64,000 nucleotides of DNA from a virus: IMG/VR virus record IMGVR_UViG_3300045988_140747. The stretch is one strand, 5' to 3'. The notes below the pieces were generated by a model. It saw only the letters and a list, made by a program, of their open reading frames with translations. It was not told where the DNA came from and made no database searches. The position numbers and the translations under genes are program-made. Below, in pieces: positions 24,230 to 63,700 of the stretch. Numbering within the stretch: position 1 is the first letter of the stretch; each line of letters begins with the position of its first letter.

Positions 24230-25456
24230 ATGGAAAAAGCAGTTGAAGTCTGCGGAAAGTACACATCCGCAAAGATTTTTACCCATGACTACGATGAGAG
24301 ATCGTTTCAGCAGATCAAGGAGTTCTGTGATAACCCTGCTGCCGCCGGGAACAAAGTTCGCATCATGCCAGATGTACATGCCGGCGCAGGCTGCGTCATT
24401 GGATTCACGGCTGAGTATACCGACAAGATCGTACCCCATGTGATAGGGGTCGATATTGGATGTGGTATGTTAGCCGTAGATCTCGGAATGCGAGACATTG
24501 ATCTCGATGAACTTGATCGGCTTATTCGTGAGCGTATTCCTGCAGGATTCAACGTTCATGACGAGCCAACCATGTCTACCGGAATCCTTGATGGATTGTG
24601 CTGTAGAGACAAGCTTCATAACATTGATCGGATTGAAAGAAGCGTCGGCACGCTTGGAGGAGGAAATCACTTCATTGAACTTGATGTCGATGATGAAGGC
24701 CGAAAGTATCTCGTTATTCATACCGGAAGCCGGAATCTCGGAAAGCAAGTGGCAGACTACTACCAGAATCTTGCCATTTCAAACCTGAAGGGAAAGAACA
24801 AGACTGCTGAAGAGAAAAAAGAGCTTATCCGAAAACTTTCTGCTGAAGGCCGACAGAAGGATATCGCAGAAGCTTTAAAGGCCATCAAGCATGATTCTTC
24901 CGAAGAAATACCCGACCATCTGTGCTATCTTGAGGGCCAAGATATGAAGGAATATCTCGGCGATATGGGGCTGTGCCAATACGTTGCAAGCTTAAACCGC
25001 GGGAAAATACTCCTATCCATCCTCGGAGGACTCAGCCTGCTCAACATCTATCAAGACAGTTCCGTGTTTGAAACTATCCATAACTATATCGATAGCCATG
25101 GAATCATCAGAAAAGGGGCTGTTTCCGCCAAGGCAGGGGAGAAGCTCTTGATCCCGCTGAACATGCGAGACGGAAGTTTGATCTGCATCGGTAAAGGAAA
25201 CCCGGACTGGAACTTTTCTGCTCCGCACGGTGCCGGAAGGCTGTATAGCAGGAAGAAAGCCCGTGAGACATTTAGCGTCGAAGAATATCGGAAGCAGATG
25301 AATGGCATTTTCACCACTTCTGCCGATGCATCTACCCTTGATGAGTGCCCTATGGCCTATAAACCTGCAGATGAGATCATTGAAGCCATCGGCTCGACTG
25401 CGGAGATTGTGAAGCGCATTCGACCGATCTACAATTTCAAAGCAGGAGGCGAATGA
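24230..25456 (+). CDS. rtcB: RNA 3'-phosphate/5'-OH ligase RtcB (408 aa)
   Basis: Hallmark RtcB motifs: MPDVHAGAGCVIGF, GGGNHFIEL, SAPHGAGR. Length matches bacterial RtcB. AAGGAG RBS. Confidence 0.9.
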   Translation: MEKAVEVCGKYTSAKIFTHDYDERSFQQIKEFCDNPAAAGNKVRIMPDVHAGAGCVIGFTAEYTDKIVPHVIGVDIGCGMLAVDLGMRDIDLDELDRLIRERIPAGFNVHDEPTMSTGILDGLCCRDKLHNIDRIERSVGTLGGGNHFIELDVDDEGRKYLVIHTGSRNLGKQVADYYQNLAISNLKGKNKTAEEKKELIRKLSAEGRQKDIAEALKAIKHDSSEEIPDHLCYLEGQDMKEYLGDMGLCQYVASLNRGKILLSILGGLSLLNIYQDSSVFETIHNYIDSHGIIRKGAVSAKAGEKLLIPLNMRDGSLICIGKGNPDWNFSAPHGAGRLYSRKKARETFSVEEYRKQMNGIFTTSADASTLDECPMAYKPADEIIEAIGSTAEIVKRIRPIYNFKAGGE

Positions 25457-41333: not shown

Positions 41334-41409
41334 CGGGTATTGGCGCAGACGGTAGCGCGCCAGATTTGGGATCTGGAGGCCGTCAGTTCGAATCTGACAT
41401 ATCCGACCA
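41334..41409 (+). tRNA. tRNA-Pro (anticodon TGG), CCA encoded
   Basis: Hand-folded. Acceptor CGGGTAT/ATATCCG, D arm GCGC-AGACGGTA-GCGC, anticodon arm CCAGA-TTTGGGA-TCTGG, T arm GTCAG-TTCGAAT-CTGAC, A73, CCA. Confidence 0.85.
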
Positions 41410-41460
41410 GCGGATCATCTCCGCATCGATTGTCAACACATATAGTCTGGAGGAAATGAA

Positions 41461-41628
41461 ATGCCTACGCAGAGAGAATTTTCTGAAGCTTTCAGGTGGA
41501 TGTTCGGAAGCACTTGGAGAGGAGCTGTTGAGACGTACAAGGAAATGAAACGGAAGGATCCACAGTATATCGAAACAGTCGTGGCCGTCTACCGGAAAAA
41601 TAGCCGAGATGCGTTTTATAACGACTGA
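41461..41628 (+). CDS. hypothetical protein (55 aa) between two tRNAs
   Basis: Below ORF-track cutoff. ATG 41461 lies 7 nt after GGAGG. Reads MPTQREFSEAFRWMFGSTWRGAVETYKEMKRKDPQYIETVVAVYRKNSRDAFYND. Confidence 0.5.
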   Translation: MPTQREFSEAFRWMFGSTWRGAVETYKEMKRKDPQYIETVVAVYRKNSRDAFYND

Positions 41629-41638
41629 TTATCAATAC

Positions 41639-41715
41639 GGGCTAGTAGCTCAGTCGGTCAGAGCCGGCAGCTCATAACTGCTTGGTCGCGGGTTCAAGTC
41701 CTGCCTGGCCCACCA
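41639..41715 (+). tRNA. tRNA with CAT anticodon (elongator Met or Ile2), CCA encoded
   Basis: Acceptor GGGCTAG/CTGGCCC (G1-C72, so not an initiator). D arm GCTC-AGTCGGTCA-GAGC, anticodon arm GGCAG-CTCATAA-CTGCT, T arm GCGGG-TTCAAGT-CCTGC. Confidence 0.85.
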
Positions 41716-41752
41716 TTTTTTTGAATACTACCCCAAAAAGGAGAGATGGATA

Positions 41753-41998
41753 ATGAAAAATTCGAGCGTCAAGGAAATCGTTGAATGGGTTATTGCGAAG
41801 GGGAAAGAGAAGGCTTCGTCTCGTGTCGCGGTTATCCACGAAAGCGAGATTATCAAAGAGTTCGGTGTGGAACCTGGATGGCTTCAGAGCCATGGTCCCG
41901 AAATCTATCATGAGTGCGATCGGCACACAGAAGTTTCGGATTCTCTGATCTACACCGGAAATGACAGGGACTATTGGTCTATTCAGCTCACTTTTTGA
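41753..41998 (+). CDS. hypothetical protein (81 aa)
   Basis: AAAGGAGAG RBS. Confidence 0.65.
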   Translation: MKNSSVKEIVEWVIAKGKEKASSRVAVIHESEIIKEFGVEPGWLQSHGPEIYHECDRHTEVSDSLIYTGNDRDYWSIQLTF

Positions 41999-47954: not shown

Positions 47955-48202
47955 CAGAAAAGATATATGGGCTCACTGAAAAAAGGCGAGGACTCTACGA
48001 AGTTCCCATCGAATATACAAAGCGAGGGAAGATGATAGTTCATGCTGATTCTTATGAAGAGGCCATCCAGAATGCGCTGGATCCGATGTCTGGATCACTT
48101 CCGGTTGATGATGAGGTTGTAATGGGGAGCCTACACATTCCGTTCGAAAAGGAAAATGCTCCATTACACATCAGATTCAAAGAATTGCCAAAATGGCTAT
48201 GA
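47951..48202 (+). CDS. hypothetical protein (83 aa)
   Basis: ATGA overlap. GGAGGAAAAG lies upstream. Confidence 0.65.
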   Translation: MTEKIYGLTEKRRGLYEVPIEYTKRGKMIVHADSYEEAIQNALDPMSGSLPVDDEVVMGSLHIPFEKENAPLHIRFKELPKWL

Positions 48203-48284
48203 GATGCAACAGCTGCATTTTGTATCGCAAACCATTGCTTTCGTGCATTTTGCATAAAAAATCATATAATCGCATAAAAAGTCA

Positions 48285-48314
48285 TTGTAGTACATTATCG
48301 ACCTATGGTATCCT
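48285..48314 (+). promoter_or_regulatory. candidate promoter for the tRNA/ncRNA cluster
   Basis: TTGTAG 48285-48290, 18-nt spacer, TGG + TATCCT 48309-48314. Weak match. Confidence 0.3.
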
Positions 48315-48422
48315 GTATCCTGTCAAGAATGAGCGAGAGGCAAACAGCATCTTGCGATTTCCGATCGGCAACAGCAGGAAACCGATCCGACATGTTCCCG
48401 ACATTTTGCCGGGAACATTCAT

Positions 48423-48498
48423 GCAGCTGTAGTTCAATTGGCAGAGCATCGGATTTCCAATCCGAGTGTTGCGGGTTCGATCCCCGTCAGCTGCTCCA
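48423..48498 (+). tRNA. tRNA-Gly (anticodon TCC), CCA encoded
   Basis: Acceptor GCAGCTG/CAGCTGC, D arm GTTC-AATTGGCA-GAGC, anticodon arm TCGGA-TTTCCAA-TCCGA, T arm GCGGG-TTCGATC-CCCGT. Confidence 0.85.
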
Positions 48499-48925
48499 CC
48501 TGCGTAATGCAGGCCATGAATTGACCAACCTTCACACTGCCATGCTCGGCTCTCCATCACGGTGGAGCGGCAGGCTGCAAGCCGAGCGCTTTATATGCGG
48601 ATAATGGATGCCTTAAATGCGAGGCCCGGTTCGATACCGGAAATCCGCGCGAAAGGGGTGGATGAGATGCTGGAGCTATATTATGTGAAAGGCACTGACC
48701 TTGTATACGTCCGTCTCATCTGTCCGAAAGTGCGATCGATTTCGGCTAAAGGCAACGGAATCCACTCCAATCGTATCAACCGTTCAGCAAAGGCTGAGAC
48801 TGGAGGCGGAGGTTGTAGATACTCTAGGGGCCGACCTGCAACTCGGTTTGAAAGCGGATGTTAAGTAAAGTGGAAGATTATCATTCCCATTGCTGCTGAT
48901 ACCAGCTGATAGTCTTCCACTTTTA
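48499..48925 (+). ncRNA. ~430-nt highly structured non-coding RNA candidate ending in a long terminator hairpin
   Basis: Nested helices: 48499-48513; 48544-50/48581-87 enclosing 48552-56/48563-67; a tRNA-like module GCGGAT 48597-602 / ATCCGC 48643-48 with CCGG-TTCGATA-CCGG at 48626-40; 48661-67/48714-20; 48724-29/48740-45. A 15-bp terminator stem at 48869-48921 plus TTTTA. The only ORF (48562..48864) has no RBS and an implausible composition. Confidence 0.55.
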
Positions 48926-48928
48926 TAA

Positions 48929-49014
48929 GGGCGTGTAGCTCAGAAGGTAGAGCACGCGTGAGTCCAAAAGGTCTCCGCCAGAAGAAGTCGTCGGTTCGAT
49001 TCCGACCACGCCAA
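48929..49014 (+). ncRNA. tRNA-like element with no usable anticodon loop
   Basis: Canonical D arm GCTC-AGAAGGTA-GAGC and T arm GTCGG-TTCGATT-CCGAC. A 6-bp acceptor (G1.A72 mismatch) and no CCA. The 35 nt between the D and T arms fold into an 8-bp hairpin capped by AAAA instead of a 5-bp stem with a 7-nt loop. Confidence 0.5.
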
Positions 49015-49150
49015 GACCGAAAGTATTGAAAGATCATGTGTGGTGCGCAACATACGCGGTCTGGAGACACATAGTAGGCAACAAGGCTCGTGTTAGGTAC
49101 AAGCACGGGTCAAATGCAAGAGAGCTGAAGACGTTCAGCTCTCTTTCTTT
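49015..49150 (+). ncRNA. structured spacer ending in a second terminator
   Basis: AGACCG 49012-17 pairs with CGGTCT 49056-61. Hairpin CTCGTG/CACGGG. Terminator AAGAGAGCTGAA-GACG-TTCAGCTCTCTT (49118-49145) followed by TCTTT, spanning 49118-49150. Confidence 0.4.
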
Positions 49151-49152
49151 AT

Positions 49153-49242
49153 GCAGTCGTACTCAAGTCTGGTTTAAGAGGGCTGTTTTGAAAACAGCTA
49201 GGTGGGTAACACGCGCGGGTTCGAATCCTGCCGGCTGCGCCA
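49153..49242 (+). tRNA. tRNA-Ser (anticodon TGA), class II, CCA encoded
   Basis: Acceptor GCAGTCG/CGGCTGC, 3-bp D stem, anticodon arm GCTGT-TTTGAAA-ACAGC, 16-nt variable arm, T arm GCGGG-TTCGAAT-CCTGC, G73. Confidence 0.85.
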
Positions 49243-49271
49243 TGAAAATAAAAATGAAGGAAGGCCATTTT

Positions 49272-49946
49272 ATGAAAGTTGAAAGACCCAGTTATCAAAT
49301 CCTTACTGAGATCTCAAAAGACGGCATCGAAGAGCTGCAGCGAATTGAACGCGTAGCACGAGTCTGCTATAAGAGCGAGGATAAGATCGTCCCGGATGGC
49401 TCATCGGCGAAGAAGCTGGTGAGCTTTCTTATTAAGCAGGAGCATGAGGCCATGCTGGAGCACTCCCAGCTGTCTGTGCTGTTCACCTGTGACAGGGCCA
49501 TTGCAAATGAACTGGTACGTCACCGCATTGCATCCTTCGCGCAGGAGAGCACCCGCTACTGCAACTATGCAGGGGAGAAATTCGGATGGGAGACTACGGT
49601 TATCAAACCGTACTACATTCCCGGCGATGGGTCTGACGCATATAAAGCTTGGTTCGATGCCTGCTGGGAAGCAGAGCAAAGCTATCTGAAGCTCATTCGG
49701 AGTGGTCTTCGTCCTGAACAAGCACGCTGCGTATTGCCGTTGTGCCTGAAGACAGAGATCGTGGTGACTGCCAACTACCGTGAGTGGCGTAACATTTTCA
49801 AATTGCGTACACATATCGCCGCTCACCCTCAGATGCGCCAGCTTATGTGCCCGCTTCTTCTCGAGCTGCAGAAGAAGATCCCGGTTGTGTTTGATGATAT
49901 CTACACCTACTGGCCGAATGATGACCAGACCGGTAAGAAAGCTTAA
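49272..49946 (+). CDS. thyX: flavin-dependent thymidylate synthase ThyX (224 aa)
   Basis: ThyX signature RHRIASFAQESTRY (RHRxxSxxxxSxR). ATG 49272 lies 8 nt after AGGAAGG. Earlier in-frame ATGs overlap the tRNA. Confidence 0.85.
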   Translation: MKVERPSYQILTEISKDGIEELQRIERVARVCYKSEDKIVPDGSSAKKLVSFLIKQEHEAMLEHSQLSVLFTCDRAIANELVRHRIASFAQESTRYCNYAGEKFGWETTVIKPYYIPGDGSDAYKAWFDACWEAEQSYLKLIRSGLRPEQARCVLPLCLKTEIVVTANYREWRNIFKLRTHIAAHPQMRQLMCPLLLELQKKIPVVFDDIYTYWPNDDQTGKKA

Positions 49947-49972
49947 CCCAAAGCCGTGGAAACACGGCACAT

Positions 49973-50062
49973 CGAGGATTCGCCAAGATGGTAATGCAGC
50001 GGAATTTGACTCCGCCAGTGCTGAATAAGCGATCGCAGGTTCGAGCCCTGCATCCTCGGCCA
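49973..50062 (+). tRNA. 90-nt class II tRNA with TTG (Gln) anticodon; isotype anomalous
   Basis: Acceptor CGAGGAT/ATCCTCG (7 Watson-Crick pairs). Anticodon arm GCGGA-ATTTGAC-TCCGC. A 19-nt variable arm with GCT-GAATA-AGC stem. T arm GCAGG-TTCGAGC-CCTGC. G73, CCA. Confidence 0.7.
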
Positions 50063-50085
50063 TAAAAGCAATCTGGAGGTCGTTC

Positions 50086-50715
50086 ATGGAAAGCAAAGAA
50101 CAGCTGGTGATTTTCGGTGCCGGCCAGCAGGGGCGCGTATGTAAGCGCCTTGCCATTGAAAACGGTTATGATGTGGCAGCATTCATTGATGACTTTGCCG
50201 CAGGATTAGTAGAGGATGTCCCCGTTTATCAAACCATCTATGATATCCCGGACTTCCGAAAATACAAATATTTCGTTGCCATTGGGGATGTCAAGGCAAG
50301 ACGGAAGTTCGTTGACCAGATCTACTCTCAGAAACTTGAATCTGTCAATTTGATCGACAAAGCCGCCTATATCGAAGATGGAGCGCAGCTCGGTACAGGA
50401 AACTACATCTGCAAGCTTGCGATCATCTACGCATCTGCAAAGATCGGAAGCCACAACATTATCAACTGTAAGGCAGTTCTCGCCACGGATACGGTGGTAG
50501 GCACCAACAATAACATCTCAATGGGATGCAACCTATGCGGAAGCGTCCGTGTCGGGAACAACTGCTACATAGGATGTCAGGCGTCCATTGTGAGCGAACG
50601 AACTATTGGAAACGGCTCTACTGTCGCAGCTGGCGCTGTTGTCCTGAAGAATGTCCCTGAGAATTCTTTCGTTGCTGGTGTACCTGCCATTCCGAAGGAG
50701 AGGAAAAGACGATGA
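50086..50715 (+). CDS. NeuD/PglD-family sugar N-/O-acyltransferase (hexapeptide repeat), 209 aa
   Basis: N-terminal LVIFGAGQQGRVCKRLAIENGYDVAAFIDD Rossmann-like opening, plus a left-handed beta-helix repeat region (IGSHNIINCKAVLATDTVVGTNNNISMGCNLCGSVRVGNNCYIG). Confidence 0.75.
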   Translation: MESKEQLVIFGAGQQGRVCKRLAIENGYDVAAFIDDFAAGLVEDVPVYQTIYDIPDFRKYKYFVAIGDVKARRKFVDQIYSQKLESVNLIDKAAYIEDGAQLGTGNYICKLAIIYASAKIGSHNIINCKAVLATDTVVGTNNNISMGCNLCGSVRVGNNCYIGCQASIVSERTIGNGSTVAAGAVVLKNVPENSFVAGVPAIPKERKRR

Positions 50716-51374
50716 AAGTTCTTGTTATCGCACCTCACCCTGATGACGAGATTCTCGGTGTTGGCGGAACGATAGCAAAAAGGGCTGCTGTCGGCGATGA
50801 AGTTACCGTGTGCATCTGTACAAAGGGCGTACACCCTATGTTCGATCAAAAGATTATTAAAGCTGGACGTGATGAAGCCAGAAAGGCTCACACATACCTT
50901 GGTGTCTCAGAAACCATATTTCTGGATCTTCCTGCTGCAGAGCTTGATAGTCTGCCTATGACTGATATCGTGGGAAGGCTCGAGAATGTGGTTTGCGAAA
51001 CACGTCCAGATGAGATTTTCATTCCTCATCATGGTGACATCCACAATGACCATAAGGCTATCTCTGCTGCCGCGATGGTTGCTTTGAGGCCGAAACGGTT
51101 CAAGAAGCCTGTTCGCATTCTCAGCTATGAGGTTCCGTCTGAGACAGGATGGGATACTCCTACTCCAGAAAATGCATTTAGCCCGAATGTATATGAGGAT
51201 ATCACCGACACAATCGGAAAGAAGCTCGACGCTGTTCTTATATACAGATCGCAAGCTGAACAGTGGCCGGGCGCTCGTTCCGCGGGCGCTGTTGAAGCTC
51301 TTGCAAAATATCGGGGATCTACCGTCTGCATCCCTTACGCCGAGGCATTTCAGCTTGTAAGGCAGACACTGTGA
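50712..51374 (+). CDS. PIG-L/LmbE-family N-acetyl-sugar deacetylase (220 aa)
   Basis: VLVIAPHPDDEILGVGGTIAK and HGDIHNDHKAIS are the family zinc-site motifs. ATGA overlap with the upstream gene. Confidence 0.8.
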   Translation: MKVLVIAPHPDDEILGVGGTIAKRAAVGDEVTVCICTKGVHPMFDQKIIKAGRDEARKAHTYLGVSETIFLDLPAAELDSLPMTDIVGRLENVVCETRPDEIFIPHHGDIHNDHKAISAAAMVALRPKRFKKPVRILSYEVPSETGWDTPTPENAFSPNVYEDITDTIGKKLDAVLIYRSQAEQWPGARSAGAVEALAKYRGSTVCIPYAEAFQLVRQTL

Positions 51375-51401
51375 CCAACATCTAAAGAAGAGGGTTCGTC
51401 A

Positions 51402-52055
51402 ATGGAAAAACGAATTGAAGTTTGCAAGATGAGAGCTGGAGATATCAAAACCGGCTTCGGGAATCCCAGAAAGATCAGCAACAAAAAAATGGATGAGCTC
51501 GAGCAGAGCATGAGCACCTTCGGAGATTTCGGGATTTTCCTCATCGACGAAAAGAACAACGTCATCGGCGGAAACCAGCGGTTGAAAGTTGTCAAGAAGC
51601 TTTATGGCGAAGATGCCATGATTGATTGCAAACGGCTCATCGGATATTCTCAATCCGAGCTCAAGGCGATCAACATCAAGGACAACACACACTCTGGTGA
51701 ATGGGACCTTGACTTGTTGGCTGACTGGACTTCTGAACTCGTCATGGACTTCAGCGTTGAGGCCGAGGAGAAGAAGCAGATCGAAGAGCGCGAGATCCCG
51801 GAGATGGAGCTTATCCACTACGAAAAGTACGATTATGTCATGATCGTATGCAACAACGAGCTGGATTACAACAATCTGGTGAGAGCACTTGGCATCGAAG
51901 GCAAGAAAGTTCGGATTTCCAAACGCAAGATCAACGCGCGTGCGGTCTGGTATCACAAGATGAAGGCGAAGGTCATTCCTTACGATGAACTTCCTGAAGA
52001 ACTTCTTGATGATTCTGACATCAAGGCAAGGGATGGCGGTGGCGAAGATGAGTAA
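51402..52055 (+). CDS. ParB/Srx-fold N-terminal-domain protein (217 aa)
   Basis: GFGNPRKISNKKMDELEQSMSTFGDFGIFLIDEKNNVIGGNQRLKVVKKLYG parallels the ParB N-domain (NPR....l..L..si...G...pi.v.....viDGhhRl.a...lg), with GGNQR in place of DGHHR. Confidence 0.55.
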   Translation: MEKRIEVCKMRAGDIKTGFGNPRKISNKKMDELEQSMSTFGDFGIFLIDEKNNVIGGNQRLKVVKKLYGEDAMIDCKRLIGYSQSELKAINIKDNTHSGEWDLDLLADWTSELVMDFSVEAEEKKQIEEREIPEMELIHYEKYDYVMIVCNNELDYNNLVRALGIEGKKVRISKRKINARAVWYHKMKAKVIPYDELPEELLDDSDIKARDGGGEDE

Positions 52056-52671
52056 CAATACTCTCGTTATCCTTGGTGCCGGCCAGCAGGGAAGAAACTG
52101 CCATAGACTGGCTCCCATCAACGGTTATCAAACGGTTGCCTTCGTCGATGATTTCATCACTGACCCAGTGGAAGACATCCGGGTGTATAGCAAGATCGAA
52201 GATATTCCGGATTTCATGGATCATAAGTACATCGTTGCTGTTGGGGATCTTGCGGTCAGAAAAAAGTTCATTGAGCAGATCAATCTGCTTGGCCTTGAGT
52301 GCGCAAACCTGATTGATCCCACCGCTGATATCGAACCCGGAGCCAAGATTGGAACTGGCAACTACATCTACAAGTTCGCCAGCGTGTATGCTTCGGCCAC
52401 AATCGGAGACCACAACATTATCAATTGCAAAGCTGTACTTGCTACCGACAGCGTTATTGGCAACAACTGCAATATCTGCATGGGAAGCAACATCTGTGGC
52501 GCGGTTCATGTAGGAGACAATAGCTATATTGGGTACAACGCAACGGTCGTCAGCGGGAACAACGTGGGGGCGAACGCCACAGTGGAGGCTGGATCTGTGG
52601 TTATGGAGGATGTGCCGGACTGGCTCCGCGTTTCTGGTATTCCGGCTCGAGACGCCGAAGAACTGTGGTAA
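52048..52671 (+). CDS. second NeuD/PglD-family acyltransferase (207 aa)
   Basis: ATG 52048 inside ORF 51985..52671. LVILGAGQQGRNCHRLAPINGYQTVAFVDD. Roughly half the residues are identical to 50086..50715 by eye. Confidence 0.75.
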   Translation: MSNNTLVILGAGQQGRNCHRLAPINGYQTVAFVDDFITDPVEDIRVYSKIEDIPDFMDHKYIVAVGDLAVRKKFIEQINLLGLECANLIDPTADIEPGAKIGTGNYIYKFASVYASATIGDHNIINCKAVLATDSVIGNNCNICMGSNICGAVHVGDNSYIGYNATVVSGNNVGANATVEAGSVVMEDVPDWLRVSGIPARDAEELW

Positions 52672-52686
52672 ACGTAGAGGTGTAAT

Positions 52687-53403
52687 ATGGAAAAGCCAGA
52701 TATTTTCGGAATCTACATTCCGAGCTATAAGAGATCTGATACGATTACCACTCATAAGCTTCTCGAATACTACAAGGTTGTTATTCGCCAGAGCGAATAT
52801 GAAGACTACCTCAAGACCATCCCTGCAGAAAACATCATTGCCGTTCAGGACGATCTTATCGATAGCGTTCCGAAGGTGTGGAACTGGATCATCGACAATG
52901 CAGAGGAGGACTACTTCTGCATTATCGGTGATGATGTTCCAAGGTTCTACTACCGGCTTGAGAAGAGCGAGGCCATCACAGATCCTGAGATTATCACTTC
53001 TGAGATAGAGCGAATCGGCCAGCTTATGATCGATCTCAATATCGGATGGGGATGTGATGATGCCACCAACGTGCCTTGGGGATACGATGCTGAGTTCACG
53101 TTCAAGGGGACTACCGGCGGAATCAACTGGATTAACAGGAAGAAGCTCAAGGGAAGGTTCAATGCGGAAATCGGATACTGCTGCGATACCGATGTCGTTA
53201 TGCAGGAACTTCTGGTAAACCGGATTATTCTCAAACCCAAGTATTTGTGTCCCGGCGGTGGAGCTGACAAAAACAAAGGCGGCAACTCAAAGAAGAGCCG
53301 AGAGAGTATGATTGCCAGCTTCGAACTTATGAAAACGAAGTGGGGCAAGTATTTCGACTACGACCTGAAGACCAACAAGATCTATGTGAGGGTTCCGCGA
53401 TGA
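52687..53403 (+). CDS. unknown protein, possible GT-A-like glycosyltransferase (238 aa)
   Basis: GAGGTG RBS. N-terminal strand IYIPSYKRSD and a DxD-like IIGDDV. Assignment is weak and motif-based only. Confidence 0.3.
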   Translation: MEKPDIFGIYIPSYKRSDTITTHKLLEYYKVVIRQSEYEDYLKTIPAENIIAVQDDLIDSVPKVWNWIIDNAEEDYFCIIGDDVPRFYYRLEKSEAITDPEIITSEIERIGQLMIDLNIGWGCDDATNVPWGYDAEFTFKGTTGGINWINRKKLKGRFNAEIGYCCDTDVVMQELLVNRIILKPKYLCPGGGADKNKGGNSKKSRESMIASFELMKTKWGKYFDYDLKTNKIYVRVPR

Positions 53404-56282: not shown

Positions 56283-57691
56283 ATGAGTATGCCACAGATC
56301 CTGAAGCCGCAGGAAGGACCTCAGACACGGTTCATGTCTACCCCCGCGAGCATTTGTATCTATGGCGGCTAGGAGCAGCCGGCGGAGGGAAAAGCTTTGG
56401 ATTGCTCATGTCTGCCCTTCGGTACAAGAACGTGCCCGGGTTTGGCTGCACCATATTCCGAAAGAACTTCAACCAGATATTTGCACAGGGCGGTCTGTGG
56501 GATGAATCCATGCAGATCTACCAAGACGTCAAGGGAGCTTGTCCCAAGTTCGCTCGAGGGCAATGGTTGTTCTGCAATGACAAAGGTGAGGTTTTATCAA
56601 AGGTCACGTTTGCTCATATTGAGAAGGATGAGGACGTCCATAAATGGCAAGGCTCTCAGATCTGCGAATTGGGATTTGACGAGCTAACTCATTTTACCGA
56701 GAAAACGTTCTTCTATATGCTATCCCGTAACCGATCTGCCTGTGGTGTTGAGCCATTTGTCAGGGCTACATGCAACCCTGATGCGAATTCATGGGTGGCA
56801 AAGTTCATTGAGTGGTGGATCGATCAGGATACTGGATACCCAATCCCTGAACGGAGTGGGAAGATTCGATGGTTTATCCGCCGGGATGAAGTGCTCTACT
56901 GGGCTAATACCCGGCAAGAGCTCTGGAAAAGATTCAATCTCACTACAGAAGAGGAGAAAAGTGAGCCAAGGTCTGTCACGTTCATAATGTCTAAGTTGAG
57001 CGACAACAAGGAACTTATGAAGGTGAACCCGGGCTACCTTGCAAACCTAAAGGCGCTGTCTCAGATCGAGAGAGAGCGCCTTCTTTATGGAAACTGGAAG
57101 ATCAAGGCCGCTGCTGGTCTCTACTTCAAGAGATCACAGCTTGGAGAGATTCTCAATAGTGTCCCTGCGGATGTCATCCAGTGGGTAAGATGCTGGGACT
57201 TGGCTGCTACGGAAAAGGACGACAAGGGAGACCCGGCATATACTGCTGGCGTCCTTATGGGAAAGCGGAAGAATGGACGATATGTCATTGCCAACGTTGT
57301 CAACAAGCAGATGTCCGCATCTGATGTCCGAAAGACCATCAAGCTCACGGCACAGTCTGATAGAGCTGCCTATAAGCGAGTCCGAGTTCGATTGCCACAG
57401 GATCCCGGACAGGCCGGTAAGGAACAGGCGGAGTCCTACATAAAGTTCTTGGCCGGCTTTGATGTTACGACTGTGGCAGAAAGCGGAACCAAAGAGGCAA
57501 GAGCGGAGCCAATGGCTGCACAATGGCAGGCTGGAAACTTCGACATTGTATACGGCGAGTGGAATGAAGAGTACCTGCTTCAGCTTGAAAACTTCCCAGA
57601 TGGAAAGTTCAAGGATATGGTCGATGCTTCCGCAAATGCTTTTGCAGAGATCGAATCCAGATGCGCATTCAACCTCAGCAACCTGATTTGA
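56283..57691 (+). CDS. terL: terminase large subunit, reading frame broken 5' of the Walker A motif
   Basis: Frame A (56283-56372) reads MSMPQILKPQEGPQTRFMSTPASICIYGG then TAG. The frame of ORF 56354..57691 continues (L)GAAGGGKSFGLL... plus the full ATPase and nuclease domains. Removing 5 nt (TAGGA, 56370-56374) restores ...IYGGAAGGGKS. Confidence 0.8.
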
Positions 57692-57717
57692 TTACCATAC
57701 CGGAAGGAGATATAAGC

Positions 57718-60700
57718 GTGGATAAGATGACACAAGAGGATCGCATCAAGCACTATGCGCATCTGATTCAGCGTCAGACTGGCAAGGCTGTGCGACCGTA
57801 CCGTGCTGACGGATACGTCAACATGGTTAACCGGTATGGCACATCGAAAGATTCGTCCGAGCAGTACAACTTCGTACCGGATGCGCCGGTTGCTGACGAT
57901 GTGCTTGAAATGCACTATGAAAACAACGGCCTGTTTTCCAAAATCATCGATATGCCGGCAGAGGAAGCCATCAAGCACGGCTTTACCATCGAAGACGTAG
58001 AGGACGGAAAGCTGGCTGACTTCTACAGCGAAGCTCTCGACGAACTCAACTGGGAAGAGAACGCCATGACCGCCGTTAAGTGGGCAAGACTGTTCGGCGG
58101 CTCCATTGCCATTATGCTTGTGAACGATGGTCGTGGGCTCGAGGAACCTCTCGATTGGAAGAACATTCAATCCATTGACGATATCCGAGTGTACGACAGA
58201 TCGCTCATTAGCCCTGACTACAGTAGCGTGTTCAACTACGATCCGCAGGATCCATTCCGAGTTCGCGGCAGTCGGCTTGGTATGCCCGAATACTATGATG
58301 TCTATAGCAAGTATGGATCATTCCGAGTACACGACAGCAGATGCCTTGTTTTCCAAAACGGCGTCCTGCCTGAAAATGCAACTAACTCCATCTACCAGTT
58401 TTGGGGAATCCCGGAGTACATCAGGCTGAACAAGGCCATCCGGGATGCGGACATTGCACACCGCAGCGCACCCAAGTTGCTGGAACGGTCTGTGCAGCCC
58501 ATCTATAAGATGAAGGATCTCGCGGCTGAGTTGGCTACAGAACAGGGCGAAGACCGCATTCTCAAACGTCTGCAGGTTATCGACACTGCACGAGGAATCC
58601 TCAACAGCCTTGTCATCGATGCCGATGGCGAAGACTATGACTTCAAGACGTTCCAGTACAACGGTATCACTGACGTTATCAGTGCATCCTGCAATATGCT
58701 CGCTGCCCTGTCCAATATTCCACAGATCATTCTGTTTGGGCAGACCATCAGCGGAATGAGCAGCACTGATGACACCAGCATGGAGAACTACTACAACTAC
58801 GTTGAGCGCATTCAGAAAAGGATGCTGCGGAGTAATCTCCGATATCTACTGTCTGTTGTTTTTCAAGCCGGCCTTGCAACCGGAGAGGTTGATGAAGTCC
58901 CAAAGCTGAAGGTTCAGTTCAATCCTCTGTGGTCTGTCAGCGATTCCGACCAAGCAACTCTGGATCAGCAGAAGGCCCAGACCGAGCAGATCAAGGCGCA
59001 GACTGCCCAGATCTATGTCGGTATGGAAGCCATTGATCCCAGCGAGGTTCGTTCCAAGCTTGCAGATAGCGATGACTTTGATGTCGAGAATATGCTTGAT
59101 GAGTATACTGAAGAGGAACTCGAAGCTGGAATGCCAAGCAATGATGAGAGCCAAGAGCAAACGCCTGATGATGGACAGCCTGCTACTCCTGATTCTCAAC
59201 CTACTGGAAATGATGAAAAAGCCGGACCTGGTCAGCTCCTGAACGAAAAGACTCTCTCTGCTGTTGGAAACAATGCAAAAGATCCTGCCACCATGGAGAC
59301 TAAGGTTAGCTCCGATCCTCATGAAAACAAGGAAGGCACTGAAGGTGATGCCCCTGCATCCGCCCCTGCTGCGACGAAAAAGCCTTCCGACATGGACCCT
59401 GAAGAAAAGGCCAAAGCTGCACAATCGCGCCAAAACAAGGCAAAAGACCGGGAGGACTCACTTCGTACCGATGACAACAATTCTCACTCCGAAGATCAAA
59501 AAGGCTCGGTGGGCGTTATTGTGGTCAATGGGGGCAGAGTCCTGAATGGTACTCGGCACAACGATTTTGGCTACGGCCTTGTCTGTGGCCCCGGCGGTCA
59601 CATTGAAGAAGGTGAAACTCCGGAACAGGCTGCATTCCGAGAGACCAAAGAAGAATTCGGTATTACGCCCAAAAGCCTTATGTGCCTTGGACAAGGGCCT
59701 AAAGAAAAAGATACCGGCCTGAAGCCGTACCTGTTCCTGTGCACCGAATACTACGGCACTCCGAACTGCGAAGATCTCGAGATGACCGGCGCCAAGTTCA
59801 GTACCATTGAGGAATTGAACGAAAAGGCCGAATCCTTGTTCGGCCCGTTCGCAGACGGCCTGAACATCCTGATGGACTGCCTTGAAACCGGCATCTTCTA
59901 TACAGACCCAGCGGAAGGCGTAACTGGCGAGAAACTGAATTCTCATCTGGAAAAGGCTATGAATGCCGATGGAGGTCAAGGATCTGGCAATTTTGGACAC
60001 GAAGGAAGGCCAGGAAAAGTAGGAGGAAGCGCCGAGTCGCACAACTTTGGAGGGCTCAAAAACAGCGAGCTTTCATCTAAGATGAATGGCGTGTTCGATG
60101 ATGCAAAGATAGGAACTCGCTTTTCCGTAAAGATGAACGGCGTTGCCGGAAAAGATGATTATGAAATCTATAAAGTTTCAGATGGATTCTACGTTCGGAG
60201 CAAAAAAGGCGGAAACGATATTGTCAAATCAGTTGACAAGCTCGTCGAGAATTGCGGTGTATACGTCACAAATCTGACCTCTGACAAGGTCATGTATAAG
60301 GAAGCCAACATTGAAGTTGGTGAACCCGAAACAGAAGAAGCACAAAGTTTTACTAGAGCATACGAATCTTGCAGAAAGGAAAGAGAGCGACTTGCATCTG
60401 GGAATTATAAAATCACTGAAGTTGATGATGCTACCGCAAAAAAGTATGCTGACACTTTGAACAAAGCAAGCAAGGCAAAAATCGCAAAACTTGCTATTGA
60501 TGACCCACAGTTCAAGGCTGTTGTTGATAACATTTCTGCGTATACACAGGGAGAATATGTATATCAGCGAAAAGCGACTGAAAAATTCATCAGCAACGGA
60601 TATGACCCATCTAACGATGCAATCCTCGGAGATCGACTTACCGATTCTTTGTATTTATGCAAAGACATGTACAAGGGACAAAATCTTTCCGTTTCCAGTG

Positions 60701-63700
60701 CAAGTGTAACGGAAGGCATGGCGAACTTGACAAAGGCTGTGAATTGCTCCGATCCGTTTGACGGAGAGCTGTACCGAGTTGCTCAGGACAGAAGCCTGAT
60801 GAAAACTGCAGACTCTGGAAACCAGGGAGTATACACTCCGCCAAAACCCGGAGAAACAATATCCATAGTTGCTCCTACTTCGTTCTCAAAGGACAAAGCG
60901 GCTATTGATAAGATTGCCAAAGATAAGTCCGGTGATATCATCTATTACACTGTTCAACCGGGTGCTCATGCCGTAGATGTATCAAAGCTGTCACCGTATA
61001 AGCAAGCTGAACTCCTTACCTGCGGAGAATATGAGGTTGTCAGTGTTGATTCCAAGCCTCAGAGAGTTGTTATGACTCAGATCGATCGTTTCACAAGTGA
61101 AACAATCGATTCGCTGAAGGCCAACAGAGGGGCAACAGTTGACGACGGTTTTGTTAAATTTCCAATCCTTGAAACTCATGTGACTCTTCGCCAGAAAGAA
61201 CCTATTCACATGGATTCTTGCGATGATAGCATCCACAGATACAGACCCGACGATTTTTCCGAACGGATGGTCTATGATGACGAGATTGATCTCGATGGTG
61301 GCCCAGGGTCTGGGAACTATGGGCACGAGGGCGTTCCGGGGCAAGTGGGCGGAAGCGCCCCTAGCACAAGCGGTCCGATTTCCAAAAGTAGCTTTCAGAA
61401 GGGCTCTGGTCACTTTGAAGTAACTGGTGACGTGAAAGATATGTATCTCACAAAGCCGGCAAGAACCAGAATTGAAGGGGCTATTAAAACGGTGAAAACC
61501 GCTAATGACCTCAAGAAATATCTTGAAAATCAAGGAATCAAGCTTGAAACGTCTTATGAACCACTCAAGAAAGCGATGGATAGAGAGATCCCGTCCATCA
61601 AGGAGCAGGCTGATTATGTGATTGCCGCTATTGAGCAGTACAAGGATCTCGGTGGGCTTAAAGCGCTTAAAGCGGTTCACATCTATGACCATGATATTGA
61701 TGCACAGGCGCAGTACAGCTATCGCGCAAAAGGGGAAGGTGATGTTCCAGACGAGGGACATTTGTATATCAGCTACATGGCTAATGGAGAGCAAATTATG
61801 CATGAGTTTGCTCACGCCTATGCTGACTCCACAAAGCCTGATGGAATGGATGTTGTCGAATGGTCAGCGAAGCTCAACCAAGAAGCAGGCCTTTCGAAAA
61901 ACGTAAAATCATACTTCGGCGCGGACAGCGATGCTAAAGAAGCTGAGCGTTTTGCCAATGCGATTGGGTACGCAATTGCGGATGGAGATGGACCGGATGG
62001 CCGACTTGCATTTGCTGCAAATGTTGCGAATATCGTAAGAAATTCCAATGGATCGTCCGCAGGAATGTCCGGCGGAAACCTTGCATTTAGAAGCATGATT
62101 CCGAAAGACAGCTACTTCAACTCTCCATCCTACAAGAAGGCTGTTGAAGCCTACCGCGGAGCCATCAGAAAGCATGACGATGCATGGAAGAAATATAGCG
62201 ACCTCAAGGAAGATCTCAAAGCAGAGTCCGCTCCGAAGCCTGAATCTGAATGGGATGATAACGACATCTTCGAAGATCTCATTGGCCATCGTCCCATGAC
62301 CTACACAGAAAAAGGCAAGAAGATCAAGTCTGAGATGGACAAAGCCTTCAAGGATTCACAGGAATATGACCATGAGCAGACCGAGACTGGCGACAAGCTT
62401 CGCGAGATCAAGAAAAAAGAGCATGACAAGCAGGTGAAGGGCATCCATTTCCAACCGCCTGCTGATGCCTCCTCCGATGATTATGAGGGCTTTACCACTA
62501 AGACCACCGGAACGTCCGCCTATGATGACTACATCAACGGAGAAAGGAACGGAGGCCGAATTGCAGAGATGTCCCCGGCGGAATATCTTCAAAGATGCGC
62601 CTATCAGGTCTTTGAAGATGCTACCATTGAGTCCACTCTGGCTGCTATCGATGAGTCCAACGTTAAGAAGTATGCCGATATGATGAAGAATGGCACAAAG
62701 TTTGACATGCCGTATCTCAATTTCATGTCTGGTCAGCAGGAAGGACGGCATCGAGCCGCTGCTGCCATGCAAGCTGGTATCGATAAGATCCCTGTGCTTG
62801 TGGTCGGAGAAAGGTTTGCCAAGTATGACGGAGGAAAAGGCTCTGGCAACTGGGGCCATGAAGGCCGAAAAGGGAAGCTCGGTGGATCGGCCCCCGGCGG
62901 AGGCGTGCACAACCGGATTTCCGAAGAGGGCGGATCCTACACCTCATTCTCAAAGAAGCAGAAGAAACTTGCCACAACGCACTTTGCCGGCAAGGGGGAA
63001 TTTCACAATCTCCCGGACAAGACTAAGATTGTTGCCGATCTTGTGTTTGGACCGTACTCTATGGTCTATAACGCCAAGCATGGCATGTTCATCGGCGAAG
63101 ACGGTGCCGAAATGAACCCGGATGATGTGACAGACGCTTGCGACAAAGACACTCCTGTTCGAGTGTTCATTCCGAATGAGGCGAGCACGAACTACAACAA
63201 GCTCAAGCAGTCCTTTGATGTTTCCCCGTCCAGAATGGCTGAAGCAAAAGCCTATTCACAGCCAAAGCAAGCCGACAAAGACCTCCGAAAGAAAACCGGA
63301 GAGGTGTGGAAAACGCTTACTGATGGTCAGAAAAAGTCACTTTATGATTATACCGGCGGCTTTTTTATGGACATCAACCACTCCCTGAGAAGTGGTCATG
63401 GAACTGTGCAGAACCAGTCCAAGGCCTCTGACATCACGACCGCCATAGCTAAGAGCAAAACTCAAGAGGATATGTGGCTGTATCGAGGAGTTGGCTTGGA
63501 GGCTGTTCCTAAGATGTTTGGTATTGACTGGGGAAAAATACAGAAGAATGACATTGGTTCTATTGTTGGAATGTCCGGCTCTGACGACGGCTTTATGTCG
63601 TGCGGTACAACTGCTGGCACTGGATATGGAGACGTAACCGATGTCAACATGAAGATTTTCGTTCCGAAGGGGTCTGAGGCTCTATACGCAGAGCCGTTCT

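What the first reader, a model, noticed from the sequence alone, without database searches (positions are those of the whole stretch)
48499..49152. About 650 nt of dense RNA secondary structure, with embedded tRNA-like modules, wedged between genuine tRNA genes
Seen in sequence, no credible ORF lies between tRNA-Gly (ends 48498) and tRNA-Ser (starts 49153). The stretch does contain many compatible helices: 48499-48513; GCTCGGC/GCCGAGC 48544/48581 enclosing CTCCA/TGGAG; GATGAGA/TCTCATC 48661/48714; and CCGAAA/TTTCGG 48724/48740. It also holds a mini acceptor-plus-T-arm module (GCGGAT...CCGG-TTCGATA-CCGG...ATCCGC, 48597-48648) and a 15-bp terminator (48869-48925). These are followed by a tRNA-like element and a second terminator (49118-49150). 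From established knowledge, the large ornate RNA classes GOLLD and ROOL are typically found in prophages of Firmicutes next to tRNA genes. Phage tRNA islands can also carry group I introns or tmRNA-like genes. Inference: this is a large structured phage ncRNA, either of one of those classes or new. I cannot match it to a consensus from memory.
Basis: partly seen in the sequence, partly recalled or inferred. Interest (0 to 1): 0.72.

Follow-up and report, generated by a model that had tools for sequence, protein, structure and literature searches.

The report
Structured small-gene RNA with tRNA mimics
The stretch between two phage tRNA genes is not one giant non-coding RNA but a tightly folded transcript that carries a conserved 49-codon gene with its ribosome-binding site paired away, flanked by two tRNA look-alikes that cannot decode and probably mark RNA cutting sites.

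Summary
Alignments of 6-8 diverged lineages of this human-gut temperate phage show compensatory base changes in them. The reading as one large ornate ncRNA does not hold.

- No Rfam family other than tRNA matches. GOLLD, ROOL, tmRNA, group I/II introns and RNase P are all absent, even at E<=10.
- The claim of "no credible ORF" is wrong. Window 48667-48813 is a 49-codon gene under purifying selection: median dN/dS is 0.18 in frame and about 1-2.3 in the other frames, and variable sites by codon position are 10/11/33. A Shine-Dalgarno sequence precedes it, and ATG, TTG or GTG sits at one fixed position.

The interval is a composite:
- a structured leader ending in a tRNA-like minihelix without a D arm (48597-48648);
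- the small gene, whose ribosome-binding site lies inside a covarying long-range helix (48649-63 with 48760-74);
- a 16-bp hairpin with an invariant loop;
- a tRNA shell (48929-49014) that keeps its acceptor, D and T arms but has a scrambled anticodon arm;
- a conserved hairpin RNA and an intrinsic terminator.

tRNAs and ORFs are interleaved tightly throughout this phage. The most likely role of the tRNA mimics is therefore as RNase P/Z processing marks in a tRNA-mRNA precursor. This is inferred, not shown. The function of the protein is unknown.

The parts
48248..48330 (+). Conserved intergenic block upstream of tRNA-Gly. It is a likely promoter or regulatory region of the tRNA-mRNA transcription unit.
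   Evidence: Nearly invariant in lineages that are 73-78% identical overall. It is unique in the window. The consensus scan calls no sigma-70 site, so the promoter assignment is an inference.
48423..48498 (+). tRNA-Gly(UCC) with encoded CCA.
   Evidence: ARAGORN; Rfam 65.8 bits.
48499..48513 (+). 5-bp trailer hairpin CCUGC/GCAGG directly after the CCA.
   Evidence: The stem is invariant while the loop changes in sequence and length (GUAAU, ACUAU, GUUAA, UUGAU, UUUGCGAA).
48544..48587 (+). Leader stem P1 (GCUCGGC/GCCGAGC) enclosing hairpin P2 (CUCC/GGAG), followed by GCUUUAUAU.
   Evidence: 98.5% of cells paired, with 2 pairs changed on both sides. An extra P2 pair occurs as A-U, G-C or U-A.
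48597..48648 (+). tRNA-like minihelix without a D arm: 6-bp acceptor-like stem, variable inner hairpin, and a 4-bp T stem with a UUCRANN T-loop.
   Evidence: 100% paired; 5 of 6 acceptor pairs and 1 of 4 T-stem pairs show compensatory changes; 0/500 shuffles reach this. The covariance model finds a single copy in the window. ARAGORN and Rfam tRNA do not call it.
48652..48658 (+). Shine-Dalgarno sequence (AAAGGGG; AAAGGAG or GAGAGGAG in relatives), 8-9 nt before the start codon.
   Evidence: Alignments.
48667..48864 (+). Small protein gene. It is 65 codons in the window, with a conserved core of 49 codons (48667-48813). The tail after GGGG is not under coding constraint.
   Evidence: Median dN/dS is 0.18 in frame, against 2.33 and 0.99 in the other frames. 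Variable columns by codon position are 10/11/33. The start is ATG, TTG or GTG at one position. Three lineages have TGA after codon 49. Homologous ORFs were called independently in other assemblies (P0010, P0011, P0014, P0015).
48649..48663 (+). 5' strand of the long-range helix that covers the ribosome-binding site. It pairs with 48760-48774 inside the ORF.
   Evidence: 13 pairs, 96.2% of cells paired, 4 pairs changed on both sides.
48760..48774 (+). 3' strand of the SD-sequestering helix.
48724..48745 (+). Hairpin inside the ORF (CCGAAA/UUUCGG).
   Evidence: 95.8% paired, with 4 of 6 pairs changed on both sides. Some of these changes alter amino acids.
48783..48798 (+). Hairpin inside the ORF (UUCAGC-AAAG-GCUGAG).
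   Evidence: The two synonymous sites that vary between lineages in this otherwise nearly invariant stretch covary, A-U to U-A.
48831..48846 (+). Short hairpin CCGA/UCGG after the conserved stop position.
   Evidence: 100% paired, 2 compensatory pairs.
48868..48922 (+). 16-bp hairpin with a 23-nt loop that holds the invariant UGCUGCUGAUAC, followed by UUUUAUAA. It is either an mRNA 3' end-protecting structure or a weak terminator.
   Evidence: 99.2% paired, 6 pairs changed on both sides, 0/500 shuffles reach this. The terminator scan does not call it because the loop exceeds 8 nt.
48929..49014 (+). Non-decoding tRNA-like element. The acceptor, D and T arms are kept, there is a G1.A72 mismatch and no CCA, and the anticodon arm is replaced by a hypervariable 25-35 nt segment.
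   Evidence: Rfam tRNA 41.3 bits, with 28 nt in place of the 15 model positions of the anticodon arm. ARAGORN misses it. Acceptor pair 4-69 occurs as C-G, A-U or U-A, and 3 T-stem pairs are compensatory. The D stem is GCUC/GAGC or GCUU/AAGC.
49015..49079 (+). Imperfect long hairpin with the invariant apical sequence UGCGCAAC and a conserved 3' block GAGAYACAUAGUAGGC. It is a candidate small RNA.
   Evidence: RNAalifold consensus with several compensated pairs. The motif search recovers only relatives of this phage, apart from one hit in an Agrobacterium genome that is explicable by chance.
49085..49111 (+). Extra hairpin found only in the window lineage and L100.
   Evidence: Absent from L092, L097, L098, L099 and L103. 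Comparing the window with L100 by eye shows 2 compensated pairs.
49118..49152 (+). Intrinsic terminator-like hairpin plus U tract, ending 0-1 nt before tRNA-Ser.
   Evidence: Terminator scan: 12 pairs and a T-rich tail. The stem sequence differs between lineages but stays paired.
49153..49242 (+). tRNA-Ser(UGA).

Best explanation
The interval is one segment of a polycistronic tRNA-mRNA transcription unit of a temperate human-gut phage. It is not a single ornate ncRNA.

In order, the segment holds:
1. tRNA-Gly.
2. A roughly 150-nt structured leader that ends in a tRNA-like minihelix lacking a D arm.
3. A 49-codon gene for a small basic protein. Its Shine-Dalgarno sequence and start region are locked in a conserved long-range helix with the middle of its own coding sequence.
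4. A long 3' hairpin.
5. A tRNA 'shell' that keeps its acceptor, D and T arms but has no usable anticodon arm.
6. A conserved hairpin RNA.
7. A terminator-like hairpin.
8. tRNA-Ser.

Shown here: the gene is under purifying selection, and the helices are maintained by compensatory changes.

Inferred: the two tRNA mimics, like the real tRNAs around them, are cut by RNase P at their 5' side and by RNase Z or a similar enzyme at their 3' side. This would release a small mRNA and a small hairpin RNA, each ending in a protective hairpin plus U tract. Translation of the small gene would be gated by opening of the SD helix. The activity of the 49-aa protein is unknown.
For: Coding:
- Median in-frame dN/dS is 0.18 (range 0.04-0.50), against 2.33 and 0.99 in the other frames. 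Variable columns by codon position are 10/11/33, against 36/37/33 in the leader.
- An SD sequence precedes ATG, TTG or GTG at one fixed position.
- Gene callers called the ORF independently in four protein clusters.

Structure (covariation):
- Mini tRNA-like element.
- P1/P2.
- SD helix and intra-ORF hairpins: 97.7% paired, 10 pairs with double changes, at most 1 of 500 shuffles reaching the observed value on four of the five measures (further pair types: 89/500).
- 3' hairpin.
- tRNA shell.
- Spacer hairpin.

Nucleotide-level constraint: in strain L090 the flanking genes are 92-94% identical, but 48499-48866 is 98.1% identical.

Processing context:
- Every tRNA or tRNA-like module is preceded by a hairpin plus UUUAU(A/U), then G at +1.
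- Elsewhere in the window, tRNAs and ORFs alternate with gaps of only 10-50 nt: tRNA-Pro | 55-aa ORF | tRNA-Met, and tRNA-Ser | thyX | tRNA-Gln | next gene. Co-transcription and tRNA-end processing therefore seem unavoidable.
- RNase P is known to cleave non-tRNA substrates, including phage RNAs and operon mRNAs (PMC11143913).
Against: - There are no transcript-end or cleavage data, so processing is pure inference.
- The mini element stacks only 6+4 bp with a 2-nt spacer, not the 7+5 bp that RNase P and RNase Z normally measure. It also lacks CCA.
- Its acceptor 3' strand runs straight into the SD helix. That could mean it is a regulatory domain rather than a cleavage site.
- The tRNA shell has a G1.A72 mismatch.
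- Hairpins followed by U tracts could be true terminators. That would leave tRNA-Ser and thyX without an obvious promoter, or dependent on read-through.
- Only 6-8 lineages of one phage clade are available, so the covariation statistics rest on few independent events.
Confidence: 0.6

Rival explanations
1. One reading: a single large ornate non-coding RNA (GOLLD, ROOL or a new class) fills the whole 650 nt.
For: Many covarying helices are present. The location next to tRNA genes in a temperate phage is typical of GOLLD and ROOL (general knowledge).
Against: - No Rfam hit to GOLLD, ROOL or any large RNA, even at E<=10, in the window or in three diverged relatives.
- A protein-coding signature covers 150 nt in the middle.
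- The modules are separated by hairpin plus U-tract units.
- RNAalifold finds almost no long-range helices joining the modules.
Confidence: 0.04
2. The tRNA-like elements are decaying tRNA pseudogenes and the rest is neutral spacer. The ORF is fortuitous.
For: - The anticodon arm of 48929-49014 is scrambled and differs in every lineage.
- Thermodynamic z-scores are ordinary.
- Related IMG/VR phages with a 70-78% identical ThyX lack the whole tRNA region.
Against: - Compensatory changes keep 100% pairing in the acceptor and T stems of both mimics across lineages that are about 73-78% identical over this region.
- dN/dS is 0.18.
- The region is more conserved than the flanking genes.
Confidence: 0.04
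3. The tRNA mimics are functional decoys or sensors for tRNA-binding factors rather than processing marks. Candidate factors include host anticodon nucleases or other tRNA-targeting defences, the CCA-adding enzyme, and the phage's own RtcB ligase. Binding to the minihelix, which abuts the SD helix, would switch on translation of the 49-aa protein.
For: - The minihelix 3' strand (ends 48648) is contiguous with the SD-sequestering helix (starts 48649).
- The phage encodes RtcB, an RNA-repair ligase.
- Selection keeps the elbow and acceptor features but not the anticodon.
Against: There is no direct evidence. The single-sequence MFE folds of the leader (through codon 5, so without the ORF-internal partner of the SD helix) show no consistent pairing partner for the SD across lineages. 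The anticodon arm is the usual target of anticodon nucleases, and it is exactly the part that is not conserved.
Confidence: 0.15
4. A hok-like or type I toxin-like module, or a dual-function RNA. A small ORF is kept silent by a folded mRNA and activated by processing, possibly with an antisense RNA. Alternatively the RNA itself acts as a regulator besides encoding the peptide.
For: - The ORF is under 60 codons.
- The SD is sequestered by a conserved long-range helix.
- The mRNA is heavily structured, with invariant loop sequences (UGCUGCUGAUAC).
- A weak promoter-like site lies on the minus strand at 48707-48680.
Against: - The protein is hydrophilic and basic with no transmembrane segment, unlike most type I toxins.
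- There are no PADLOC, Pfam or PHROG hits.
- The minus-strand promoter match is 9/12, is no more than chance expectation, and lies at codon-constrained positions.
Confidence: 0.12

Closest known systems
tRNA punctuation of polycistronic transcripts (mitochondrial model), and RNase P cleavage of tRNA-like structures in bacterial operon mRNAs and phage RNAs (PMC11143913)
   Same: tRNAs and tRNA-like folds sit directly between coding units on one strand. Their excision would define the mRNA ends.
   Different: This is a phage operon. Two of the marks are non-decoding mimics, one of them without a D arm and with a 6+4 bp stack. Cleavage has not been demonstrated.
Small stable RNAs in the phage T4 tRNA gene cluster (species 1 and 2 RNAs, rnaC/rnaD; from my own knowledge)
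   Same: Non-tRNA structured RNAs are encoded within a phage tRNA cluster. They are co-transcribed and processed with the tRNAs, and their function is unknown.
   Different: There is no sequence or Rfam relationship. Here a translated small gene is embedded, and the mimics flank it.
Dual-function RNAs and structured small mRNAs (RNAIII/hld, SgrS/SgrT, SR1/SR1P; review PMC12612679)
   Same: A transcript of a few hundred nt has many conserved helices and also encodes a small protein.
   Different: A base-pairing regulatory role is not shown here. The embedding in a tRNA operon and the tRNA mimicry are not features of those RNAs.
GOLLD (RF01998) and ROOL (RF03087) large ornate RNAs
   Same: Prophage context next to tRNA genes, and many helices.
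   Different: No covariance-model match. The region is much more modular, it contains a protein-coding gene, and each unit is smaller.
Non-decoding tRNA-like RNAs: MHV68 vtRNA/TMER units, mascRNA, Bacillus cereus tRNA-Other (PMC3399842)
   Same: A tRNA-shaped RNA is kept for processing or regulation rather than decoding. In TMERs the tRNA-like unit is followed by hairpins released through tRNA 3' processing.
   Different: Those come from different kingdoms, polymerases and sequences. Here the anticodon arm is hypervariable while the other arms covary.
tmRNA
   Same: A tRNA-like acceptor/T-arm domain without an anticodon arm lies next to a short ORF.
   Different: The ORF has its own SD and start codon. 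There is no G3.U70 alanine identity pair, no pseudoknots and no CCA. ARAGORN and Rfam are negative.

Membership tests
GOLLD / ROOL (Rfam RF01998, RF03087) | Match to the family covariance model at or above the gathering score | tested here: not met
   cmscan of the whole window at gathering thresholds, and of 48200-50200 at E<=10, lists only tRNA and chance-level hits. The result is the same for the diverged relatives L092, L097, L098 and L099.
GOLLD / ROOL | A single non-coding RNA of about 500-800 nt without a conserved ORF | tested here: not met
   A 49-codon ORF with median dN/dS of 0.18 sits in the middle. The modules are separated by hairpin plus U-tract units.
tmRNA | tRNA-like domain formed by the 5' and 3' ends with alanine identity (G3.U70), and a tag ORF without SD or start codon | tested here: not met
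   ARAGORN finds no tmRNA and there is no Rfam tmRNA hit. The minihelix has G3-C at that pair, and the ORF has its own SD and ATG/TTG/GTG start.
Group I / group II intron, RNase P RNA | Match to the Rfam models | tested here: not met
   No hits at E<=10 in 48200-50200.
tRNA (RF00005), for 48929-49014 | Cloverleaf match above the gathering score, with acceptor, D and T arms | tested here: met
   41.3 bits against a gathering score of 29. The arms covary.
tRNA (decoding), for 48929-49014 | 5-bp anticodon stem with a 7-nt loop (U33, anticodon, purine 37) | tested here: not met
   28 nt replace the 15 model positions. ARAGORN does not call it. The segment differs in length and sequence in every lineage, and only L097 forms a regular stem, with a 6- or 8-nt loop.
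tRNA, for the minihelix 48597-48648 | Four-arm cloverleaf with a 7+5 bp acceptor/T stack | tested here: not met
   There is no D stem. The stack is 6+4 bp with a 2-nt spacer, and the inner hairpin loop is 5-8 nt. Rfam tRNA and ARAGORN do not detect it.
Protein-coding gene (small ORF) | Excess of synonymous changes in one frame, a start codon with SD, and an open frame in all relatives | tested here: met
   The core of 49 codons is open in all 8 lineages.
Intrinsic terminator | GC-rich hairpin with a short loop followed by a U tract | tested here: met
   Met for 49118-49152. The hairpin 48868-48922 meets it only partly: it has a 23-nt loop and 4-5 U, and the scan does not call it.
Type I toxin mRNA (hok-like) | Small hydrophobic or membrane toxin | tested here: not met
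   The sequence is basic and hydrophilic. AF2 gives only an N-terminal beta hairpin, and the rest has low confidence.
Type I toxin mRNA (hok-like) | SD sequestered by conserved long-range pairing; cis-antisense RNA | tested here: inconclusive
   SD sequestration is supported. The only evidence for an antisense RNA is a chance-level promoter match.
RNase P / RNase Z substrate (processing mark) | Cleavage at the 5' and 3' ends of the tRNA-like fold | not testable with these tools
   Only the context is available: U or A at -1, G at +1, an upstream hairpin plus U tract, and tight tRNA-ORF interleaving.

The most novel reading that the evidence does not exclude
The ~430-nt unit (48499-48928) is a new kind of phage riboregulator. 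Its tRNA-mimicking minihelix is stacked on the helix that hides the ribosome-binding site. A tRNA-handling factor would read this minihelix: RNase P, the CCA-adding enzyme, the phage RtcB, or a host tRNA-targeting defence nuclease. Binding or cutting would open the helix and switch on a 49-aa basic effector. The neighbouring anticodon-less tRNA shell and hairpin RNA would act as companion decoys or small RNAs. In this reading the phage senses the state of the cell's tRNA machinery through tRNA mimicry in cis.
Probability: 0.1. Interest if true: 0.8.

Novelty: new variant of a known kind. Interest (0 to 1): 0.5.

Why it matters
The case shows that an apparently empty, hairpin-rich gap in a phage tRNA island can hide two things at once: a small protein gene that gene callers miss in most assemblies of it, and covariation-supported RNA modules absent from Rfam.

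If the tRNA mimics are processing marks, this phage uses a mitochondrion-like 'tRNA punctuation' strategy to carve mRNAs out of tRNA precursors. If they are sensors or decoys, they would link phage gene expression to the tRNA-targeting arms race.

Either way, the region offers a compact and testable system: about 430 nt and one 49-aa protein. It also gives two candidate new RNA motifs, a D-armless tRNA-like minihelix and an anticodon-less tRNA shell.

Tried and rejected
- **Rfam.** Searches at gathering thresholds and at E<=10 on the window and on relatives found nothing but tRNA.
- **Cultured phages.** Only tRNA-Gly matches.
- **IMG/VR ThyX relatives (L001-L080).** They share thyX and a distant p108 homologue but have no tRNAs and no homologue of the region.
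- **Exact-pattern scans of IMG/VR.** The minihelix, the tRNA-shell 3' half and the ORF core gave 0 hits. The upstream 83-aa protein has only relatives at 90% identity or more.
- **P0012 and P0013.** These 2066-aa and 1409-aa repeat proteins matched the ORF at E of 4e-7 and 4e-4. I rejected them as repeat-inflated, unrelated matches.
- **Small protein annotation.** There are no hits in Pfam, PHROGs, NCBIfam, PADLOC or PDB sequences. The AF2 model has pLDDT 48.5, so I did not attempt a fold search.
- **Upstream anti-SD (CCUUC near 48530) pairing with the SD.** The MFE folds disagree between lineages, so I dropped this idea.
- **Helix GATGAGA/TCTCATC.** It is not maintained in L098 and L099.
- **Ribosome-mediated attenuation by a leader peptide.** I rejected this because the stop codon lies 3 nt from the hairpin in some lineages and 50-95 nt away in others, and because the peptide sequence itself is conserved.
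- **Agrobacterium hit L101 to the spacer motif.** About 2 chance hits are expected for that pattern in 596 Gb, and the locus has no similarity to the region.
- **L089.** Homology stops at the tRNA-Gly 3' end and continues into an IS3-like transposase. This is an IS insertion or a chimeric low-coverage contig, and it tells us nothing about the RNA.
Full report
**What is there**

The window is part of a temperate phage from human-gut metagenomes.
- It encodes a serine recombinase, RecT, RtcB, a large terminase and a portal fusion protein.
- Identical or near-identical copies occur in hundreds of ENA and Logan assemblies.

The finding covers the gap between tRNA-Gly(UCC), 48423-48498, and tRNA-Ser(UGA), 49153-49242.

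Rfam at gathering thresholds adds one more tRNA-model match inside the gap, at 48929-49014 (41.3 bits). ARAGORN does not call this element. A permissive Rfam search of 48200-50200 at E<=10 gives nothing else above chance level. There is no GOLLD, ROOL, tmRNA, group I/II intron or RNase P match. Three diverged relatives give the same result.

**Is the structure more than chance?**

Thermodynamically it is not clearly so.
- 48499-48866 folds with z = -0.72, and 24 of 100 shuffles fold as well. The opposite strand gives z = -0.89.
- 150-nt windows across this stretch give z between -0.1 and -1.7.
- The significant overall z-scores (-2.9 for 48499-48928 and -4.0 for the whole interval) come from the two big hairpins and the tRNA-like element.

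The decisive evidence therefore had to be comparative.

**Finding relatives**

- Cultured phages share only tRNA-Gly.
- IMG/VR phages with a 70-78% identical ThyX lack the tRNAs and the whole region.
- Strains with identical flanking proteins are 92-100% identical.
- In strain L090 the flanking genes are 92-94% identical, but 48499-48866 is 98.1% identical. This is a first sign of constraint at the nucleotide level.
- The breakthrough came from searching the longest ORF of the gap (48562-48864) against 1.84 billion representative proteins. Two short ORFs called in other assemblies matched (P0010 at 86% identity, P0011 at 79%).
- Their contigs, a further one (P0015) and degenerate DNA-pattern scans gave syntenic lineages. 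L100 is 92% identical to the window over this region, and L092, L097, L098, L099/L102 and L103 are 73-78% identical.

**A real small gene**

- From 48667 the alignment switches to a coding pattern. Across six lineages the median dN/dS is 0.18 in this frame, against 2.33 and 0.99 in the other two.
- Variable columns by codon position are 10/11/33. In the leader they are 36/37/33.
- The start codon is ATG, TTG or GTG at one fixed position. It lies 8-9 nt after AAAGGGG, AAAGGAG or GAGAGGAG, and the codons just upstream are not conserved.
- The conserved product is 49 aa: MLELYYVKGTDLVYVRLICPKVRSISAKGNGIHSNRINRSAKAETGGGG.
- Three lineages stop there with TGA. The window and four other lineages (L100, L092, L099/L102) read on for 16 or more codons. 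In that tail, changes fall mostly on codon positions 2 and 3 (3/7/5), and L097 has a 1-nt deletion. The tail is therefore not under coding constraint.
- The protein has no match in Pfam, PHROGs, NCBIfam, PADLOC or PDB sequences.
- AlphaFold2 gives only an N-terminal beta hairpin at moderate confidence (mean pLDDT 48.5).

**The RNA structure is also real**

| Element | Window coordinates | Cells paired | Pairs with compensatory changes |
|---|---|---|---|
| tRNA-like minihelix (acceptor-like and T stems) | 48597-48648 | 100% | 6 of 10 (0/500 shuffles reach the paired fraction) |
| Leader stem P1/P2 | 48544-48587 | 98.5% | 2 |
| Nine helices within the mRNA | 48649-48846 | 97.7% | 10 (1/500; 0/500 for paired fraction, cells and covariation score) |
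| 3' hairpin | 48868-48922 | 99.2% | 6 of 16 |
| tRNA shell (acceptor and T stems) | 48929-49014 | 100% | 4 |

Further details on these elements:
- The acceptor-like stem of the minihelix appears as GCGGAU/AUCCGC, GCAGGC/GCCUGC, GGAAAU/AUUUCC or GGGAAU/AUUCCC. Its T stem (CCGG/CCGG or CCAG/CUGG) closes a UUCRANN T-loop. Between the two stems every lineage has a hairpin, but of different length and sequence. There is no D stem.
- The most telling mRNA helix is a 13-pair long-range helix between 48649-48663, which contains the SD, and 48760-48774, which covers codons 32-36. It is 96.2% paired and 4 of its pairs changed on both sides.
- The hairpin CCGAAA/UUUCGG (48724-45) has 4 of 6 pairs compensated, partly through amino-acid changes.
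- In the hairpin 48783-98, the two synonymous sites that vary between lineages in an otherwise nearly invariant stretch covary.
- The loop of the 3' hairpin holds an invariant UGCUGCUGAUAC.
- In the tRNA shell, pair 4-69 occurs as C-G, A-U or U-A, and the D stem switches between GCUC/GAGC and GCUU/AAGC. The 25-35 nt that replace the anticodon arm differ in every lineage.
- 49015-49079 forms an imperfect hairpin with an invariant apical UGCGCAAC.
- 49118-49152 is a terminator-like hairpin whose stem sequence differs between lineages.

**Architecture and likely mechanism**

The interval is modular. Three times, a hairpin followed by a U-rich tract (GCUUUAUAU, UUUUAUAA, UUCUUUAU) directly precedes the G+1 of a tRNA or tRNA-like fold.

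Elsewhere in the window, tRNAs and ORFs alternate on the same strand with gaps of only 10-50 nt:
- tRNA-Pro | SD plus 55-aa ORF | tRNA-Met | next gene;
- tRNA-Ser | thyX | tRNA-Gln | next gene.

Such an arrangement implies polycistronic tRNA-mRNA precursors that RNase P and 3'-processing enzymes necessarily cut apart. RNase P is known to cut non-tRNA substrates, including phage RNAs and operon mRNAs (PMC11143913).

The best-supported explanation is that the minihelix and the tRNA shell are extra processing marks. They would excise the small mRNA and a small hairpin RNA, each ending in a protective hairpin. The SD-sequestering helix would then gate translation of the 49-aa protein. The coding and structural parts of this explanation are shown here. 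The processing and the gating are inferred.

Points against:
- The minihelix stacks only 6+4 bp.
- It lacks CCA.
- It is contiguous with the SD helix, so it may be a regulatory domain rather than a cleavage site.

**Rivals**

- A single ornate ncRNA is essentially excluded.
- Neutral decay of tRNA pseudogenes is excluded by the compensatory changes and the low dN/dS.
- Decoy or sensor roles for the mimics remain possible and untested. The phage encodes RtcB.
- A hok-like silent small mRNA or a dual-function RNA also remains possible and untested.

**Comparison and novelty**

The closest known things are:
- tRNA punctuation and RNase P processing of tRNA-like folds in mRNAs;
- the small stable RNAs of the T4 tRNA cluster (from my own knowledge);
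- dual-function RNAs (PMC12612679);
- non-decoding tRNA-like RNAs such as B. cereus tRNA-Other (PMC3399842).

The region is not a member of any curated RNA family. The covariance model of the minihelix finds a single copy in the window. The ORF and the RNA motifs are confined to one clade of gut phages.

I rate it a new variant of a known kind, with moderate interest. It is a clean example of overlapping coding and structural constraints, and it offers two candidate new tRNA-mimic motifs. Its distribution is narrow and its function is not established.

Noticed in passing
window 24230-25456: The phage encodes an RtcB-family RNA ligase (Pfam PF01139, E=1e-60). This enzyme repairs or splices tRNA, so it may be relevant to the tRNA and tRNA-mimic cluster or to defence against tRNA-cleaving nucleases.
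   Followed up: partly
window 41334-41760: A second case of a small ORF sandwiched between tRNAs. tRNA-Pro is followed by an SD and a 55-aa ORF (41462-41629), then tRNA-Met starts 9 nt after the stop, and the next gene starts 38 nt after tRNA-Met.
   Followed up: partly
window 49973-50062: tRNA-Gln(UUG) is 90 nt long and has an extra arm of about 15 nt, like a class II tRNA, which is unusual for tRNA-Gln. The L097 lineage has a normal 77-nt version.
   Followed up: partly
L089 1573-2489: In one Hadza-metagenome contig, homology to the window stops exactly at the 3' end of tRNA-Gly and continues into an AT-rich IS3-like transposase. This is either an IS insertion at the tRNA end or a chimeric low-coverage assembly.
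   Followed up: partly
L092 2880-2925 (between window 48590 and 48594): A lineage-specific 42-nt insertion forms a terminator-like hairpin (AAAGAGCG...CGCUCUUUUU) between the leader stem and the tRNA-like minihelix.
   Followed up: no
window 49272-53403: thyX is followed by PglD-like acetyltransferases, a PIG-L deacetylase and a TET-associated glycosyltransferase (TAGT)-like protein. Together these suggest a DNA base hypermodification cluster.
   Followed up: no
window 57661-63897: A 2078-aa portal-NUDIX fusion protein carries three copies of a GGxGSGNxGHxGRxGxxGGS motif spaced along the chain. These may be linker or processing sites.
   Followed up: no
window 48248-48330: An intergenic block upstream of tRNA-Gly is almost invariant across lineages that are otherwise about 75% identical. 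It contains two GCAUAAAAANUCAU repeats and may be a phage-specific promoter or operator.
   Followed up: partly
window 48766-48806 and 48890-48902: The ORF stretch AAUCGUAUCAACCGUUC shows almost no synonymous variation. It contains GUAUCA, which is complementary to UGAUAC in the invariant loop of the 3' hairpin. A 6-bp loop contact is possible but cannot be tested by covariation, because both sides are invariant.
   Followed up: no
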